Source: the human T2T-CHM13v2.0 reference genome, Homo sapiens. From it: 64,000 bases of DNA. The stretch is taken from the NCBI RefSeq assembly GCF_009914755.1, contig NC_060929.1. One strand, written 5' to 3'. The position numbers were made by a program, and so were the translations under genes. The notes beneath the pieces are model-generated. The model saw nothing but the letters and a program-made list of their open reading frames with translations, ran no database searches and was not told the origin of the DNA. This document shows, piece by piece, positions 37,261 to 57,165 of the stretch; position 1 is the first letter of the stretch; the number at the start of each line of letters is the position of its first letter.

Positions 37261-37893
37261 AGTCAGATTCATATTTGAAATCAACAGAACCCATACTAGT
37301 TAGGATTCAAGAGGGGAAAGAATTATTGGAAAATATTAGATATTTCAGAGGTTCTTTAGGAGAGCCAGAGAATCAACCTTGGAGGCTACACGCAATTATC
37401 TTGCAGATTCTGAGGACAAACCTGTTACTGCTGCCACCAGACCTATAACCTGTCACTTTCCCTGAATCTGAGATATTACTTCTAAGTCTTCTATCACTGT
37501 AGCCTCTGAAAACAGAATGACCCTGTCCACCAAGCCAGATTCCACGCTGTTTGGCACCTTTTTCATTTCATTCTCATCCACATTGAAGTTTCTTTTTTTT
37601 TTTTTCCAGTTTCCAATACATTTTTTATTTCCACCTGAGAATTTGTCAGCCATGCCTTCACTAACTATATATATATATATATTTTTTTATTATACTTTAA
37701 GTTTTAGGGTACATGTGCACATTGTGCAGGTTAGTTACATATGTATACATGTGCCATGCTGGTGCGCTGCACCCACTAACTCATCATCTAGCATTAGGTA
37801 TATCTCCCGATGCTATCCCTCCTCCCTCCCCCCACCCCACAACAGTCCCCAGAGTGTGATATTCCCCTTCCTGTGTCCATGTGATCTCATTGT

Positions 37894-40800
37894 TCAGTTC
37901 CCACCTATGAGTGAGAATATGCAGTGTTTGGTTTTTTGTTCTTGCGATAGTTTACTGAGAATGATGATTTCCAATTTCATCCATGTCCCTACAAAGGACA
38001 TGAACTCATCACTTTTTATGGCTGCATAGTATTCCATGGTGTATATCTGCCACATTTTCTTAATCCAGTCTATCATTGTTGGACATTTGGGTTGGTTCCA
38101 AGTCTTTGCTATTGGGAATAATGCCGCAATAAACATACGTGTGCATGTGTCTTTACAGCAGCATGATTTATAGTCCTTTGGGTATATACCCAGTAATGGG
38201 ATGGCTGGGTCAAATGGTATTTCCAGTTCTAGATCCCTGAGGAATCGCCACACTGACTTCCACAATGGTTGAACTAGTTTACAGTCCCACCAACAGTGTA
38301 AAAGTGTTACTATTTCTCCACATCCTCTCCAGCACCTGTTGTTTCCTGACTTTTTAATGATTGCCATTCTAACTGGTGTGAGATGGTATCTCATTGTGGT
38401 TTTGATTTGCATTTCTCTGATGGCCAGTGATGGTGAGCATTTTTTCATGTGTTTTTTGGCTGCATAAATGTCTTCTTTTGAGAAGTGTCTGTTCATGTCC
38501 TTTGCCCACTTTTTGATGGGGTTGTTTGTTTTTTTCTTGTAAATTTGTTTGAGTTTGTTGTAGATTCTGGATATTAGCCCTTTGTCAGATGAGTAGGTTG
38601 CAAAAATTTTCTCCCATTCTGTAGGTTGCCTGTTCACTCTGATGGTAGTTTCTTTTACTGTGCAGAAGCTCTTTAGTTTAATTAGATCCCATTTGTCAAT
38701 TTTGTCTTTTGTTGCCATTGCTTTTGGTGTTTTAGACATGAAGTCCTTGCCCATGCCTATGTCCTGAATGGTAATGCCTAGGTTTTCTTCTAGGGTTTTT
38801 ATGGTTTTAGGTCTAACATTTAAGTCTTTAATCCATCTTGAATTGATTTTTGTATAAGGTGTAAGGAAGGGATCCAGTTTCAGCTTTCTACATATGGCTA
38901 GCCAGTTTTCCCAGCACCATTTATTAAATAGGGAATCCTTTCCCCATTGCTTGTTTTTCTCAGGTTTGTCAAAGATCAGATAGTTGTAGATATGCGGCGT
39001 TATTTCTGAGGGCTCTGTTCTGTTCCATTGATCTATATCTCTGTTTTGGTACCAGTACCATGCTGTTTTGGTTACTGTAGCCTTGTAGTATAGTTTGAAG
39101 TCAGGTAGTGTGATGCCTCCAGCTTTGTTCTTTTGGCTTAGGATTGTCTTGGAAATGTGGGCTCTTTTTTGGTTCCATATGAACTTTAAAGTAGTTTTTT
39201 CCAATTCTGTGAAGAAAGTCATTGGTAGCTTGATGGGGATGGCATTGAATCTGTAAATTACCTTGGGCAGTATGGCCATTTTCACAATATTGATTCTTCC
39301 TACCCATGAGCATGGAATGTTCTTCCATTTGTTTGTATCCTCTTTTATTTCCTTGAGCAGTGGTTTGTAGTTCTCCTTGAAGAGGTCCTTCACATCCCTT
39401 GTAAGTTGGATTCCTAGGTATTTTATTCTCTTTGAAGCAATTTTGAATGGGAGTTCACTCATGATTTGGCTCTCTGTTTGTCTGTTGTTGGTGTATAAGA
39501 ATGCTTGTGATTTTTGTACATTGATTTTGTATCCTGAGACTTTGCTGAAGTTGCTTATCAGCTTAAGGAGATTTTGGGCTGAGACAATGGGGTTTTCTAG
39601 ATATACAATCATGTCTTCTGCAAAGAGGGACAATTTGACTTCCTCTTTTCCTAATTGAATACCCTTTATTTCTTTCTCCTGCCTAATTGCCCTGGCCAGA
39701 ACTTCCAACACTATGTTGAATAGGAGTGGTGAGAGAGGGCATCCCTGTCTTGTCCCAGTTTTCAAAGGGAATGCTTCCAGTTTTTGCCCATTCAGTATGA
39801 TATTGGCTGTGGGTTTGTCATAGATAGCTCTTATTATTTTGAAATACGTCCCATCAATACCTAATTTATTGAGAGTTTTTAGCATGAAGGGTTGTTGAAT
39901 TTTGTCAAAGGCTTTTTCTGCATCTATTGAGATAATCATGTGGTTTTTGTCTTTGGCTCTGTTTATATGCTGGATTACATTTATTGATTTGCGTATATTG
40001 AACCAGCCTTGCATCCCAGGGATGAAGCCCACTTGATCATGGTGGATAAGCTTTTTGATGTGCTGCTGGATTCGTTTTGCCAGTATTTTATTGAGGATTT
40101 TTGCATCAATGTTCATCAAGGATATTGGTCTAAAATTCTCTTTTTTTGTTGTGTCTCTGCCTGGCTTTGGTATCAGAATGATGCTTGCCTCATAAAAAGG
40201 GTTAGGGAGGATTCCCTCTTTTTCTATTGATTGGAATAGTTTCAGAAGGAATGGTACCAGTTCCTCCTTTTACCTCTGGTAGAATTCGGCTGTGAATCCA
40301 TCTGGTCCTGGACTCTTTTTGGTTGGTAAGCTATTGATCATTGCCACAATTTCATAGCCTGTTATTGGTCTATTCAGAGATTCAGCTTCTTCCTGGTTTA
40401 GTCTTGGGAGAGTGTATGTGTCCAGGAATTTATCCATTTCTTCTAGATTTTCTAGTTTATTTGCATAGAGGTGTTTGTAGTATTCTCTGATGGTAGTTTG
40501 TATTTCTGTGGGATCGGTGGTGATATCCCCTTTATCATTTTTTATTGTGTCTATTTGATTCTTCTCTCTTTTTTTCTTTATTAGTCTTGCTAGCGGTCTA
40601 TCAATTTTGTTGATCCTTTCAAAAAACCAGCTCCTGGATTCATTAATTTTTTGAAGGGTTTTTTGTGTCTCTATTTCCTTCAGTTCTGCTCAGATTTTAG
40701 TTATTTCTTGCCTTCTGCTAGCTTTTGAATGTGTTTGCTCTTGCTTTTCTAGTTCTTTTAATTGTGATGTTAGGGTGTCAATTTTGGATCTTTCCTGCTT

Positions 40801-41721
40801 TCTCTTGTGGGCATTTACTGCTATAAATTTCCCTCTACACATTGCTTTGAATGTGTCCCAGAGATTCTGGTATGTTGTGTCTTTGTTCTCGTTGGTTTCA
40901 AAGAACATCTTCATTTCTGCCTTCATTTCATTATGTACCCAGTAGTCATTCAGGAGCAGGTTGTTCAGTTTCCATGTAGTTGAGCGGTTTTTAGTGAGAT
41001 TCTTAATCCTGAGTTCTAGTTTGATTGCACTGTGGTCTGAGAGATAGTTTGTTATAATTTCTGTTCTTTTACATTTGCTGAGGAGAGCTTTACTTCCAAG
41101 TATGTGGTCAGTTTTGGAATAGATGTGGTGTGGTGCTGAAAAAAATGTATATTCTGTTGATTTGGGGTGGAGAGTTCTGTAGATGTCTATTAGGTCCGCT
41201 TGGTGCAGAGCTGAGTTCAATTCCTGGGTATCCTTGTTGACTTTCTGTCTCGTTGATCTGTCTAATGTTAACAGTGGGGTGTTAAAGTCTCCCATTATTA
41301 ATGTGTGGGAGTCTAAGTCTCTTTGTAGGTCACTCAGGACTTACTTTATGAATCTGGGTGCTCCTGTATTGGGTGCATATATATTTAGGGTAGTTAGCTC
41401 TTCTTGTTGAATTGATCCCTTTACCATTATGTAATGGCCTTCTTTGTCTCTTTTGATCTTTGTTGGTTTAAAGTCTGTTTTATCAGAGACTAGGTTTGCA
41501 ACCCCTGCCTTTTTTTGTTTTCCATTTGCTTGGTAGATCTTCCTCCATCCTTTTATTTTGAGCCTATGTGTGACTCTGCACGTGAGATGGGTTTCCTGAA
41601 TACAGCACACTGATGAGTCTTGACTCTTTATCCAATTTGCCAGTCTGTGTCTTTTAATTGGAGCATTTAGTCCATTTACATTTAAAGTTAATATTGTTAT
41701 GTGTGAATTTGATCCTGTCAT
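37894..41721 (-). pseudogene. L1 ORF2 (endonuclease/reverse transcriptase) of copy A, disrupted; the RT to C-terminal 741 codons remain open but FADD reads FAED
   Basis: MTGSNSHITILTLNVNGLN start; stops at 41341, 40690 and 40270. Confidence 0.93.
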
Positions 41722-56438: not shown

Positions 56439-56774
56439 ATGGCGGGCGCCCCTCCCCCAGCCTCGCTGCCGCCTTGCAGTTTGATCTCAGACTGCTGTGC
56501 TAGCAGTCAGCGAGACTCCGTGGGCGTAGGACCCTCTGAGCCAGGTGCGAGATATAATCTCGTGGTGTGCCGTTTTTTAAGCCGGTTGGAAAAGCGCGGT
56601 ATTCGGGTGGGAGTGACCCGATTTTCCAGGTGCCGTTCGTCACCCCTTTCTTTGACTAGGAAAGGGAACTCCCTGACCCCTTGCGCTTCCCAAGTGAGGC
56701 AATGCCTCGCCCTGCTTTGGGTCGCGTCGGTGTGCGCACCCACTGACCTGCGCCCACTGTCTGGCACTCCCTAG
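56439..56774 (+). other. L1 ORF0 / antisense promoter region of copy B (MAGAPPPASLPPCSLISDCC..., 111 aa)
   Basis: ORF0 peptide within ORF 56370..56774, gcaATGG Kozak context, CpG-rich. Confidence 0.78.
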
Positions 56775-57165
56775 TGAGATGAACCCGGTACCTCAGATGG
56801 AAATGCAGAAATCACCCGTCTTCTGCGTCGCTCAGGCTGGGAGCTGTGGACCGGAGCTGTTCCTATTCGGCCATCTTGGCTCCTCGCAGTTCATTCTTTG
56901 TGGGGTTAATTGGAAGCAGCTGCAGCAGGAGTATTCACAAGAAAACAGGACACACCCACAGCCAAGCTATAGGAAGGTCATCATCCTAGCATGTACAAGG
57001 TTTTCCAACTTTTCATATTTCTTTCTAATTATTAAGTATCACAATAGCAAAAGAGTAGTTAGGAAGTGCTCTAATCTCACAAAGGCCTGTACCTTGTGTT
57101 TTCCTACCAATTTTGCATACTCTTCAGCTTGTAGCTGAGAAAAAGTAACTTTAGAAACATTTTGA

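What the first reader, a model, noticed from the sequence alone, without database searches (positions are those of the whole stretch)
37593..56885. Two neighbouring full-length L1s with different TSDs share the same ORF2 nonsense mutation
Seen: both copies read AGG TAA AAG on the minus strand at ORF2 codon 484 (tta at 40270-40272 in A and 53454-53456 in B, each 1449 nt from its ORF2 ATG). The older L1 in this window has AGG TAC at the equivalent site (34188-34193). The change is a non-CpG transversion. The copies also share TCRVTHRL (older copy has D), ELTTLNIY (older copy has ATC/I) and ORF1 MEEEMNEM. Relative to my recollection of the consensus, they also share ccagttagagcttccggg, gctagcagtcag and gctgtggacc in the 5'UTR and ggtatttccag near the 3' end. 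Their TSDs, tails and other lesions differ, so they are separate insertions and not a segmental duplication. Established: L1 proteins act preferentially in cis, so an ORF2-null element rarely has offspring. Inference: either long-tract gene conversion homogenised the pair after insertion, or a dead template was mobilised in trans into the same intron.
Basis: partly seen in the sequence, partly recalled or inferred. Interest (0 to 1): 0.8.

Follow-up and report, generated by a model that had tools for sequence, protein, structure and literature searches.

The report
Neighbouring dead L1 copies sharing a stop
Two old, broken L1 retrotransposon copies 13 kb apart in a CCDC192 intron share a stop codon and a few rare bases, most likely because neighbouring repeats swapped short patches of DNA, which is an ordinary process.

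Summary
Both minus-strand full-length L1s read AGG TAA AAG at ORF2 codon 484, and they have different TSDs and tails. The stop is not private. The exact 28-mer occurs at 39 places in T2T-CHM13 with TAA, against 3429 with TAC, 51 with TAT and 25 with TAG. The other TAA copies are scattered and show no common lineage. A and B are the only copies that combine the stop with at least five other rare non-CpG variants. They are also not two copies of one template. They differ at non-CpG sites where both alleles are common genome-wide, and around the stop many unlinked copies are closer to each than they are to one another. Copy A also carries a 3' transduction from chr6:48.41 Mb, which B lacks. Overall A-B identity (97.05%) is no higher than A against random copies, so there was no long-tract homogenisation. 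Best reading: two independent insertions that later exchanged short patches by non-allelic gene conversion. The stop is a post-insertion decay mutation, either copied across in a short patch or hit twice by chance; the odds between these are roughly even. A dead template mobilised twice in trans is unlikely. This is ordinary biology and of low interest.

The parts
43708..43723 (-). A: 5' copy of the target-site duplication GAAACTTCAATGTGGA
37682..43707 (-). A: full-length L1 body (5'UTR, ORF1, ORF2, 3'UTR). ORF2 ATG at 41721. Stops at ORF2 codons 127, 344 and 484. ORF1 is frameshifted.
40270..40272 (-). A: TAA at ORF2 codon 484, the shared stop
37606..37681 (-). A: (TA)n followed by a 3' transduced segment with its own AATAAA. 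63 nt (37606-37668) are 100% identical to G000:C6:48405795-48405857.
37593..37605 (-). A: A13 tail after the transduced segment
37577..37592 (-). A: 3' copy of the TSD
56886..56899 (-). B: 5' copy of the TSD AAAGAATGAACTGC
50823..56885 (-). B: full-length L1 body plus an A-rich tail, with no transduction. ORF2 ATG at 54905. Stops at codons 103 and 484, and a 4-nt insertion that shifts the frame after about codon 693. ORF1 is frameshifted.
53454..53456 (-). B: TAA at ORF2 codon 484, the shared stop
50809..50822 (-). B: 3' copy of the TSD
41390..41573 (-). A: shared rare ORF2 variants D>V (GTC, window 41573) and I>T (ACC, window 41390). B has both at the equivalent sites.
43214..43666 (-). A: shared rare 5'UTR variants at A-sense 135, 478, 578 and 587 (window 43666, 43323, 43223, 43214). 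B has all four.
42433..42433 (-). A: shared rare ORF1 variant T>A (MEEEMNEM), A-sense 1368
31352..36766 (+). Older L1 (77-83% identical to A), used as an outgroup for allele polarity

Best explanation
A and B are two independent target-primed insertions of closely related L1 elements of L1PA2/PA3 grade. They came from different templates. A came from a source at chr6:48.41 Mb that is absent from CHM13. Both decayed neutrally in the CCDC192 intron. They lie 13 kb apart in the same orientation and were about 97-98% identical, so they exchanged several short patches by non-allelic gene conversion. This made some private decay mutations common to both. The TAC>TAA change at ORF2 codon 484 is one such post-insertion mutation, carried across in a patch of at most about 140-210 nt. 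Shown here: separate insertions, different templates, a unique shared set of rare variants, and no global homogenisation. Inferred: gene conversion as the exchange mechanism, and that the stop travelled that way.
For: (1) Separate insertions: the TSDs and tails differ, and only A has a transduction. (2) Shared rare non-CpG variants: A-sense 135C, 478C, 578C/587T, 1368A, 2228T, 2411C and 3531A. Genome-wide exact-word counts are 68 places (478C), 9 (578Y+587T), 9 (1368A), 19 (2228T), 70 (2411C) and 39 (TAA). I compared the place lists by eye. Only A and B combine three or more of these, and one chr8 copy combines two. (3) Different templates: A carries 558A, 900C, 1936T and 1939C together with L035, L052 and L094, while B has the other alleles. 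The 1936T+1939C word occurs at 1868 places and 900C at 177 places, which include A but not B. In the roughly 60-70-copy panel both alleles are common at 2715 (50/11), 3444 (52/17), 3654 (50/15), 3888 (43/23) and 4582 (49/9), and A and B differ at all five. Against the older L1 as outgroup, A is ancestral at 1936, 1939, 3378 and 3654, and B is ancestral at 2715, 3888 and 5834. All four combinations of the shared set with the class-level set therefore exist, and a tree without exchange cannot explain that. (4) The only two carriers of the combination are 13 kb apart. Conversion predicts this; independent insertion from a shared source does not. (5) The scale fits published parameters of 2.5e-7 conversions per bp per generation and a mean tract of 250 bp (passages of Harpak et al. 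preprint 10.1101/135152). My arithmetic gives about 6-13 events per pair over 0.5-1.1 million generations.
Against: There is no statistical tract signal at the stop. The identical run around it is only A-sense 3526-3600. Thirteen A-B differences lie in 3400-3700. In 3431-3631, 25 of 63 panel copies are closer to A than B is, and 52 of 63 are closer to B than A is. The longest identical run, 4655-4982 (328 nt, P about 0.016), lies elsewhere. Shared and discordant sites show no clustering: 10 runs against about 11 expected, counted by hand. In segments where A and B are each other's nearest copies, their distance only matches the best panel distances, for example 9 against minima of 10 and 8 in 4301-5053. 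That could reflect shared class rather than exchange. Panel pairs with no proximity can also share several pair-private variants: L044-L039 share 5 in a 10-sequence panel, although both lie on chr1 13.6 Mb apart. The 5' and 3' panels are small (10-18 sequences). Exact-word searches miss copies with a nearby mutation. The stop recurs at about 1% of copies, so chance recurrence is a serious rival for that single site.
Confidence: 0.45

Rival explanations
1. The history is the same (independent insertions, some exchange or shared sub-lineage elsewhere in the element), but the stop arose twice. TAC>TAA happened independently in A and in B after insertion.
For: The otherwise exact 28-mer occurs with TAA at 39 places, TAG at 25, TAT at 51 and TAC at 3429. 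C>A at this site is therefore at ordinary background, about 1% of copies. The other TAA copies are scattered over the tree and share only CpG-type variants, apart from segmental-duplication sets (L019/L020, L024/L025, L026/L029/L062/L064). The stop sits in a 1.5-kb segment (2801-4300) where A and B show no special relatedness. It is flanked within 6-70 nt by private differences of both copies. Each copy has other private stops, so any one of several lesions could have coincided.
Against: Given one copy has the stop, the chance that the other has it is only about 0.8-1.1%. The same pair also shares at least five other rare non-CpG variants found together nowhere else. That raises the prior that any given shared rare variant was exchanged rather than recurrent.
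Confidence: 0.35
2. An ORF2-null source element carrying the stop and the other shared variants was mobilised twice in trans by another L1's proteins. Both offspring happened to land in the same intron.
For: A and B are genuine separate TPRT insertions. They share a set of rare variants, and A's source locus is not in the assembly, so the source cannot be inspected. Trans use of ORF2p exists for Alu, SVA and mRNAs (review PMC10760644, passages).
Against: Copies of one template must agree at class-level sites, and A and B do not. They are not each other's nearest relatives over most of the element, including around the stop. No shared rare private variant lies in the last 2.6 kb. None of the 37 other TAA places carries the other shared words. 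Landing within 13 kb by chance has a probability of about 1e-5 for two random insertions (my arithmetic). ORF2p shows strong cis preference.
Confidence: 0.08
3. One long conversion tract, or a DNA-level duplication, homogenised the pair.
For: The shared rare variants span A-sense 135 to 3531.
Against: Homology ends at the L1 termini and the TSDs differ. A-B identity is 97.05% overall. The 163 A-B differences compare with a mean of 171.6 for random full-length panel pairs. Three of 30 random copies are more similar to A than B is. Discordant class-level sites interleave with the shared ones.
Confidence: 0.03
4. Assembly or polishing artefact: bases from one copy were written into the other.
For: None from these tools.
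Against: The copies differ at 167 positions spread along their whole length and have unique flanks. A collapse would remove such differences. Read-level data were not available here.
Confidence: 0.02

Closest known systems
Non-allelic (ectopic) gene conversion between nearby paralogous sequences in humans
   Same: Independent paralogues in the same orientation, 13 kb apart and about 97% identical, share private mutations in a pattern no tree can explain. The number and size of patches are of the order predicted by the published rate (2.5e-7 per bp per generation) and mean tract length (250 bp) (Harpak et al. preprint 10.1101/135152, abstract and passages read).
   Different: That study was on gene duplicates, not L1s. 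Here no single tract reaches significance, and no outgroup species could be used.
Gene conversion involving L1 elements
   Same: L1 copies can act as donors and acceptors of conversion. An intrachromosomal conversion inside an L1 locus is described in PMC1920257 (passages read). That paper also cites Tremblay et al. 2000 on double-strand-break repair of a LINE by endogenous LINEs, which I saw only as a citation.
   Different: Those cases are break-repair or single-segment events. Here the pattern is several old small patches between two fixed full-length neighbours.
L1 3' transduction
   Same: Copy A carries non-L1 sequence between the L1 polyadenylation signal and the final A13 tail. That sequence has its own AATAAA about 20 nt before the tail, and 63 of 63 bases are identical to a single site on chr6.
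   Different: The chr6 site has no L1 in CHM13 within 6.5 kb upstream. The source is therefore lost or was never fixed. Alternatively, the segment was joined by template switching.
Trans-complementation of defective L1s (Wei et al. 2001; seen only as cited in PMC10760644)
   Same: It would allow an ORF2-null RNA to be copied.
   Different: The two copies do not derive from one template, so this mechanism is not needed.

Membership tests
Full-length L1 insertion by target-primed reverse transcription | Direct target-site duplications flanking the element | tested here: met
   A has 16 nt at 43708-43723 and 37577-37592. B has 14 nt at 56886-56899 and 50809-50822.
Full-length L1 insertion by target-primed reverse transcription | 3' A-rich tail and colinear homology to other full-length copies from 5'UTR to 3'UTR | tested here: met
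   homology runs over A-sense 99-6119 to 8 full-length controls, and both copies have A tails.
Full-length L1 insertion by target-primed reverse transcription | Intact ORF1 and ORF2 (coding competence) | tested here: not met
   Both copies have several stops and frameshifts. They are dead copies.
L1 3' transduction (copy A) | Unique non-L1 sequence after the L1 poly(A) signal, ending in a second poly(A) signal and tail, inside the TSDs | tested here: met
   window 37606-37681, with AATAAA and A13.
L1 3' transduction (copy A) | A source L1 immediately upstream of the matching genomic site | tested here: not met
   L098 (chr6:48399300-48406400) has no L1 homology except the 66-nt match.
Non-allelic gene conversion between A and B | Paralogues of independent origin | tested here: met
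   Different TSDs, tails and transduction. Different class-level alleles.
Non-allelic gene conversion between A and B | Shared derived variants incompatible with any single tree (four-gamete conflict) | tested here: met
   Shared set against class-level set: A has both sets. B has only the shared set. L035, L052 and L094 have only the class-level set. The rest have neither.
Non-allelic gene conversion between A and B | Statistically significant converted tract (run of identity, GENECONV-type test) | tested here: inconclusive
   The longest identical run is 328 nt at 4655-4982, P about 0.016. There is none at the stop. GENECONV itself was not run.
Non-allelic gene conversion between A and B | Paralogues cluster within species when orthologues of other apes are added | not testable with these tools
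   No other primate genome is held.
Lineage descended from one ORF2-null template | Offspring agree at all template positions and are mutual nearest relatives along the whole element | tested here: not met
   class-level differences exist. In 2801-4300, 21 of 52 panel copies are closer to A than B is, and 9 of 52 are closer to B than A is.
Lineage descended from one ORF2-null template | Other genomic copies carry the stop together with the lineage's other variants | tested here: not met
   None of the 37 other TAA places appears in the lists of the other shared words.

The most novel reading that the evidence does not exclude
An ORF2-null L1 RNA was retrotransposed in trans, and its cDNA was made mosaic by template switching onto the helper element's RNA. 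One of the two copies would then be a chimera of a dead and a live lineage, a natural record of trans-mobilisation with RNA-level recombination. The mosaic pattern and the missing chr6 source do not strictly exclude this. It would need many switches, and it leaves the 13-kb proximity unexplained.
Probability: 0.04. Interest if true: 0.6.

Novelty: new member of a known kind. Interest (0 to 1): 0.22.

Why it matters
The evidence points elsewhere. The pair is a worked example of how neighbouring repeats trade short patches, or hit the same site twice. Shared disabling mutations in adjacent L1s therefore should not be read as evidence of a common dead source. There is a practical lesson for L1 phylogenetics and source-tracking. 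About 1% of copies carry any given point change at a site. Class-level alleles of this L1 age group are themselves reticulate, and proximity matters. The finding itself is ordinary.

Tried and rejected
(1) A lineage of stop-bearing copies. I fetched all 39 TAA places with 1.5 kb on each side, built a tree and listed shared rare variants. Outside segmental-duplication sets they share only CpG-type sites. Rejected. (2) The chr8:72.18 Mb copy (L070), which carries both D>V and I>T. It has TAC, is 5'-truncated, is 95.1% identical to A, lacks 1368A and is of an older class. About 0.4 such double carriers are expected by chance (my arithmetic). It is either chance or a distant relative of the donor. 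(3) The seven other copies with the 5'UTR double variant (L091-L097). At codon 484, 5 of 7 read TAC and 2 of 7 were not covered. All seven lack 478C, 1368A, 2228T and 2411C. (4) The chr6:48.205 Mb L1 (L099). It carries 478C and 900C and lies 200 kb from A's transduction match. It shares nothing else, and its 3' flank does not match. Coincidence. (5) Conversion of A by the adjacent older inverted L1. The flanking bases do not match, and identity is only 77-83%. Rejected. (6) A recent conversion tract at the stop. The run-length and window counts were negative. (7) Shared indels. There are none; all indels are private. (10) Literature. Searches turned up no report of this locus or of a Y484* L1 lineage. 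No paper supplements were opened.
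Full report
**What is there.** The window is T2T-CHM13 chr5:128216001-128280000. Two full-length L1s lie on the minus strand, antisense to CCDC192.
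- Copy A: body 37682-43707, TSD GAAACTTCAATGTGGA at 43708-43723 and 37577-37592.
- Copy B: body and tail 50823-56885, TSD AAAGAATGAACTGC at 56886-56899 and 50809-50822.
- Homology between them stops at the L1 ends: 97.05% over 6040 nt, 165 mismatches, 6 gaps. They are separate insertions, not a duplicated segment.
- Both read AGG TAA AAG at ORF2 codon 484, 483 codons after their ATGs. The older plus-strand L1 at 31352-36766 reads TAC there.
- All other lesions are private. A has stops at codons 127 and 344 and two ORF1 indels. B has a stop at codon 103, a 4-nt insertion in ORF2 and a 2-nt ORF1 deletion.

**Is the stop private?** No. I searched the whole assembly for the 28-mer around the codon.

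| Codon in otherwise exact 28-mer | Places |
|---|---|
| TAA | 39 |
| TAC | 3429 |
| TAG | 25 |
| TAT | 51 |

C>A here is at the level of the other two possible changes, about 1% of copies. I fetched 3 kb around all 39 TAA places and around 30 TAC places from chr1.
- In a FastTree of the 69 sequences, the TAA copies scatter among the TAC copies.
- The exceptions are obvious segmental-duplication sets: L019/L020, L024/L025 and L026/L029/L062/L064.
- Pairs of TAA copies that sit near each other in the tree share only CpG-type variants.

So there is no dispersed lineage of stop-bearing L1s. The stop mostly arises again and again.

**What A and B share.** A and B are sisters in that tree. They share two further rare ORF2 changes: D>V (GAC>GTC, A-sense 2228) and I>T (ATC>ACC, A-sense 2411). 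A-sense position p is window 43801 minus p.

I added the 5' and 3' parts of 10 controls and seven copies found through a 5'UTR word. The non-CpG variants that A and B share and that are rare in the panel are 135C, 478C, 578C/587T, 1368A, 2228T, 2411C and the stop at 3531. Four more shared variants are CpG-type (250A, 1071T, 1981T, 1991T) and carry little weight.

| Shared variant | Places genome-wide (exact word) |
|---|---|
| 478C | 68 |
| 578Y+587T | 9 |
| 1368A | 9 |
| 2228T | 19 |
| 2411C | 70 |

I compared the place lists by eye. Only A and B combine three or more of these. One 5'-truncated chr8 copy (L070) combines 2228T and 2411C, but it reads TAC and is 95.1% identical to A.

'ggtatttccag' occurs at 1129 places, and 5182G occurs at 8009 places.

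My rough expectation is 0.35 chance-shared rare non-CpG variants per pair. Five word-verified shared variants then have P of about 3e-5. This is an inference. The shared set is real and unique to the pair.

**Are they two copies of one template?** No.
- A shares 558A, 900C, 1936T and 1939C with L035, L052 and L094. B has the alternative alleles.
- These are not rare accidents. The 1936T+1939C word occurs at 1868 places. 900C occurs at 177 places, which include A and not B.
- In the central 3 kb, with 60-70 panel copies, A and B differ at five non-CpG sites where both alleles are common: 2715 (50/11), 3444 (52/17), 3654 (50/15), 3888 (43/23) and 4582 (49/9).
- Against the older L1 as outgroup, A is ancestral at 1936, 1939, 3378 and 3654. 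B is ancestral at 2715, 3888 and 5834. Neither copy is simply older than the other.
- All four combinations of the shared set with the class-level set exist. A has both sets. B has only the shared set. L035, L052 and L094 have only the class-level set. The rest have neither.
- The two kinds of site interleave along the element.

Sliding windows say the same.
- A and B are each other's nearest or near-nearest copies in 99-700, 1899-2800 and 4301-5800.
- They are not in 701-1898, 2801-4300 or 5801-6119.
- In 2801-4300, which holds the stop, 21 of 52 panel copies are closer to A than B is, and 9 of 52 are closer to B than A is.

Copy A also has a 3' transduction that B lacks. After the L1 poly(A) signal come a (TA)n run and about 63 nt with their own AATAAA and an A13 tail. 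These bases are 63/63 identical to chr6:48405795-48405857. That site has no L1 in CHM13.

**No homogenisation.**
- In the central 3 kb, B is 97.75% identical to A, and 3 of 30 random chr1 copies score higher, up to 98.09%.
- Over the full length, A-B has 163 differences. Random full-length panel pairs average 171.6, and A or B against controls about 185.
- The 167 differing columns are evenly spread. The longest identical run is 328 nt at 4655-4982 (P about 0.016), far from the stop.
- A has 62 private variants and B has 67, so neither has been broadly overwritten.

**Mechanism.** Four facts need explaining: separate insertions, different templates, a private shared set of rare variants, and a distance of only 13 kb.
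- Exchange between the two copies after insertion explains all four.
- A shared source explains neither the class-level differences nor the proximity. Two random insertions fall within 13 kb with probability about 1e-5, by my arithmetic.
- Conversion from third-party L1s at seven or more separate sites would have erased private variants in one copy, and that is not seen.

The scale also fits. With 2.5e-7 conversions per bp per generation and a mean tract of 250 bp (Harpak et al. preprint, abstract and passages), a 6-kb pair should see roughly 6-13 events in 0.5-1.1 million generations. A few of the donor's private mutations would then become shared. This too is my arithmetic.

I therefore favour patchy, mostly old, non-allelic gene conversion.

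**The stop itself.** Here the evidence is weaker.
- The stop lies in a segment where the two copies show no special relatedness.
- The identical run around it is only 3526-3600.
- Private variants of A (3462, 3601) and of B (3514, 3525, 3673) flank it closely. A patch that carried the stop was at most about 140-210 nt, or else very old.
- Against that stands a 0.8-1.1% chance that the second copy acquired the same change independently.

I put these two at roughly even odds. Neither requires a dead element to have been mobilised.

**Comparison with what is known.** Non-allelic gene conversion between nearby paralogues is well described. L1s are known to take part in conversion (PMC1920257, passages). 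ORF2p cis preference and trans use by non-autonomous RNAs are textbook (PMC10760644, passages). Searches found nothing on this locus or on a Y484* L1 lineage. No supplements were opened.

**Limits.**
- Exact-word counts miss copies with a neighbouring mutation.
- Subfamily names are by divergence only, about 1.0-1.1% private change per copy. Names such as L1PA2/PA3 are not from any tool call.
- No other primate genome or read data were available.

**Verdict.** The striking interpretation, a dead template with two offspring, is not supported. Long-tract homogenisation is not supported. Short-patch exchange between neighbours, with chance recurrence as a live alternative for the stop itself, is the best reading. 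This is ordinary biology.

Noticed in passing
window 37606-37681; L098 (G000:C6:48399300-48406400) 6494-6559: Copy A carries a 3' transduction whose 63-66 nt are identical to a single chr6 site. That site has an A-rich, target-like junction (…CAAAAATAT/AGTTAG…) and no L1 in CHM13. The progenitor was apparently never fixed or was lost. Weaker matches (79-86%) on chr5, chr11 and chrX suggest the segment lies in an old repeat.
   Followed up: partly
window 43260-43919 and 56424-56999; enhancer 55955-57154 (hub annotation): RefSeq alternative exons of CCDC192 (plus strand) start about 440-460 nt inside the 5'UTR of A and of B and run out through the L1 5' end. This is the layout expected for transcripts driven by the L1 antisense promoter (recalled, not tested). 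The annotated enhancer overlaps B's 5'UTR.
   Followed up: no
L052 (G000:C1:58006376-58009403) and L054 (G000:C1:58252189-58255216): Two same-strand chr1 L1s 246 kb apart share 5 pair-private non-CpG variants. Four of them lie within 52 nt (A-sense 2100-2151). This looks like a small shared tract or a sub-lineage.
   Followed up: no
panel of L1 copies, A-sense 1936/1939 versus 3888: Among unlinked copies, all four combinations of the ancestral and derived alleles at 1936/1939 and at 3888 occur. The L1 population of this age is therefore itself reticulate, not one clean succession of subfamilies.
   Followed up: partly
genome-wide, ORF2 codon 484 word: The transversion to A (39 places) is nearly as frequent as the transition to T (51), and more frequent than the transversion to G (25). 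Part of the excess comes from pericentromeric and acrocentric duplicated copies on chr7, chr9, chr14, chr15, chr16 and chr22.
   Followed up: partly
L070 (G000:C8:72175001-72184000), minus strand: A 5'-truncated older-type L1 carries both D>V and I>T but has TAC at codon 484. It is either a chance double or a relative of the lineage in which these two changes arose.
   Followed up: partly
window 31352-36766 (+): An older L1 (77-83% identical) lies inverted only about 800 bp from A's 3' TSD. I saw no sign that it donated sequence to A.
   Followed up: partly
L044 (G000:C1:48030902-48033929) and L039 (G000:C1:34429757-34432784): These two full-length chr1 copies, 13.6 Mb apart on opposite strands, share 5 variants that are pair-private in the 10-sequence panel. 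This is probably a sub-subfamily under-sampled by the panel, and it warns against reading small-panel sharing as exchange.
   Followed up: no
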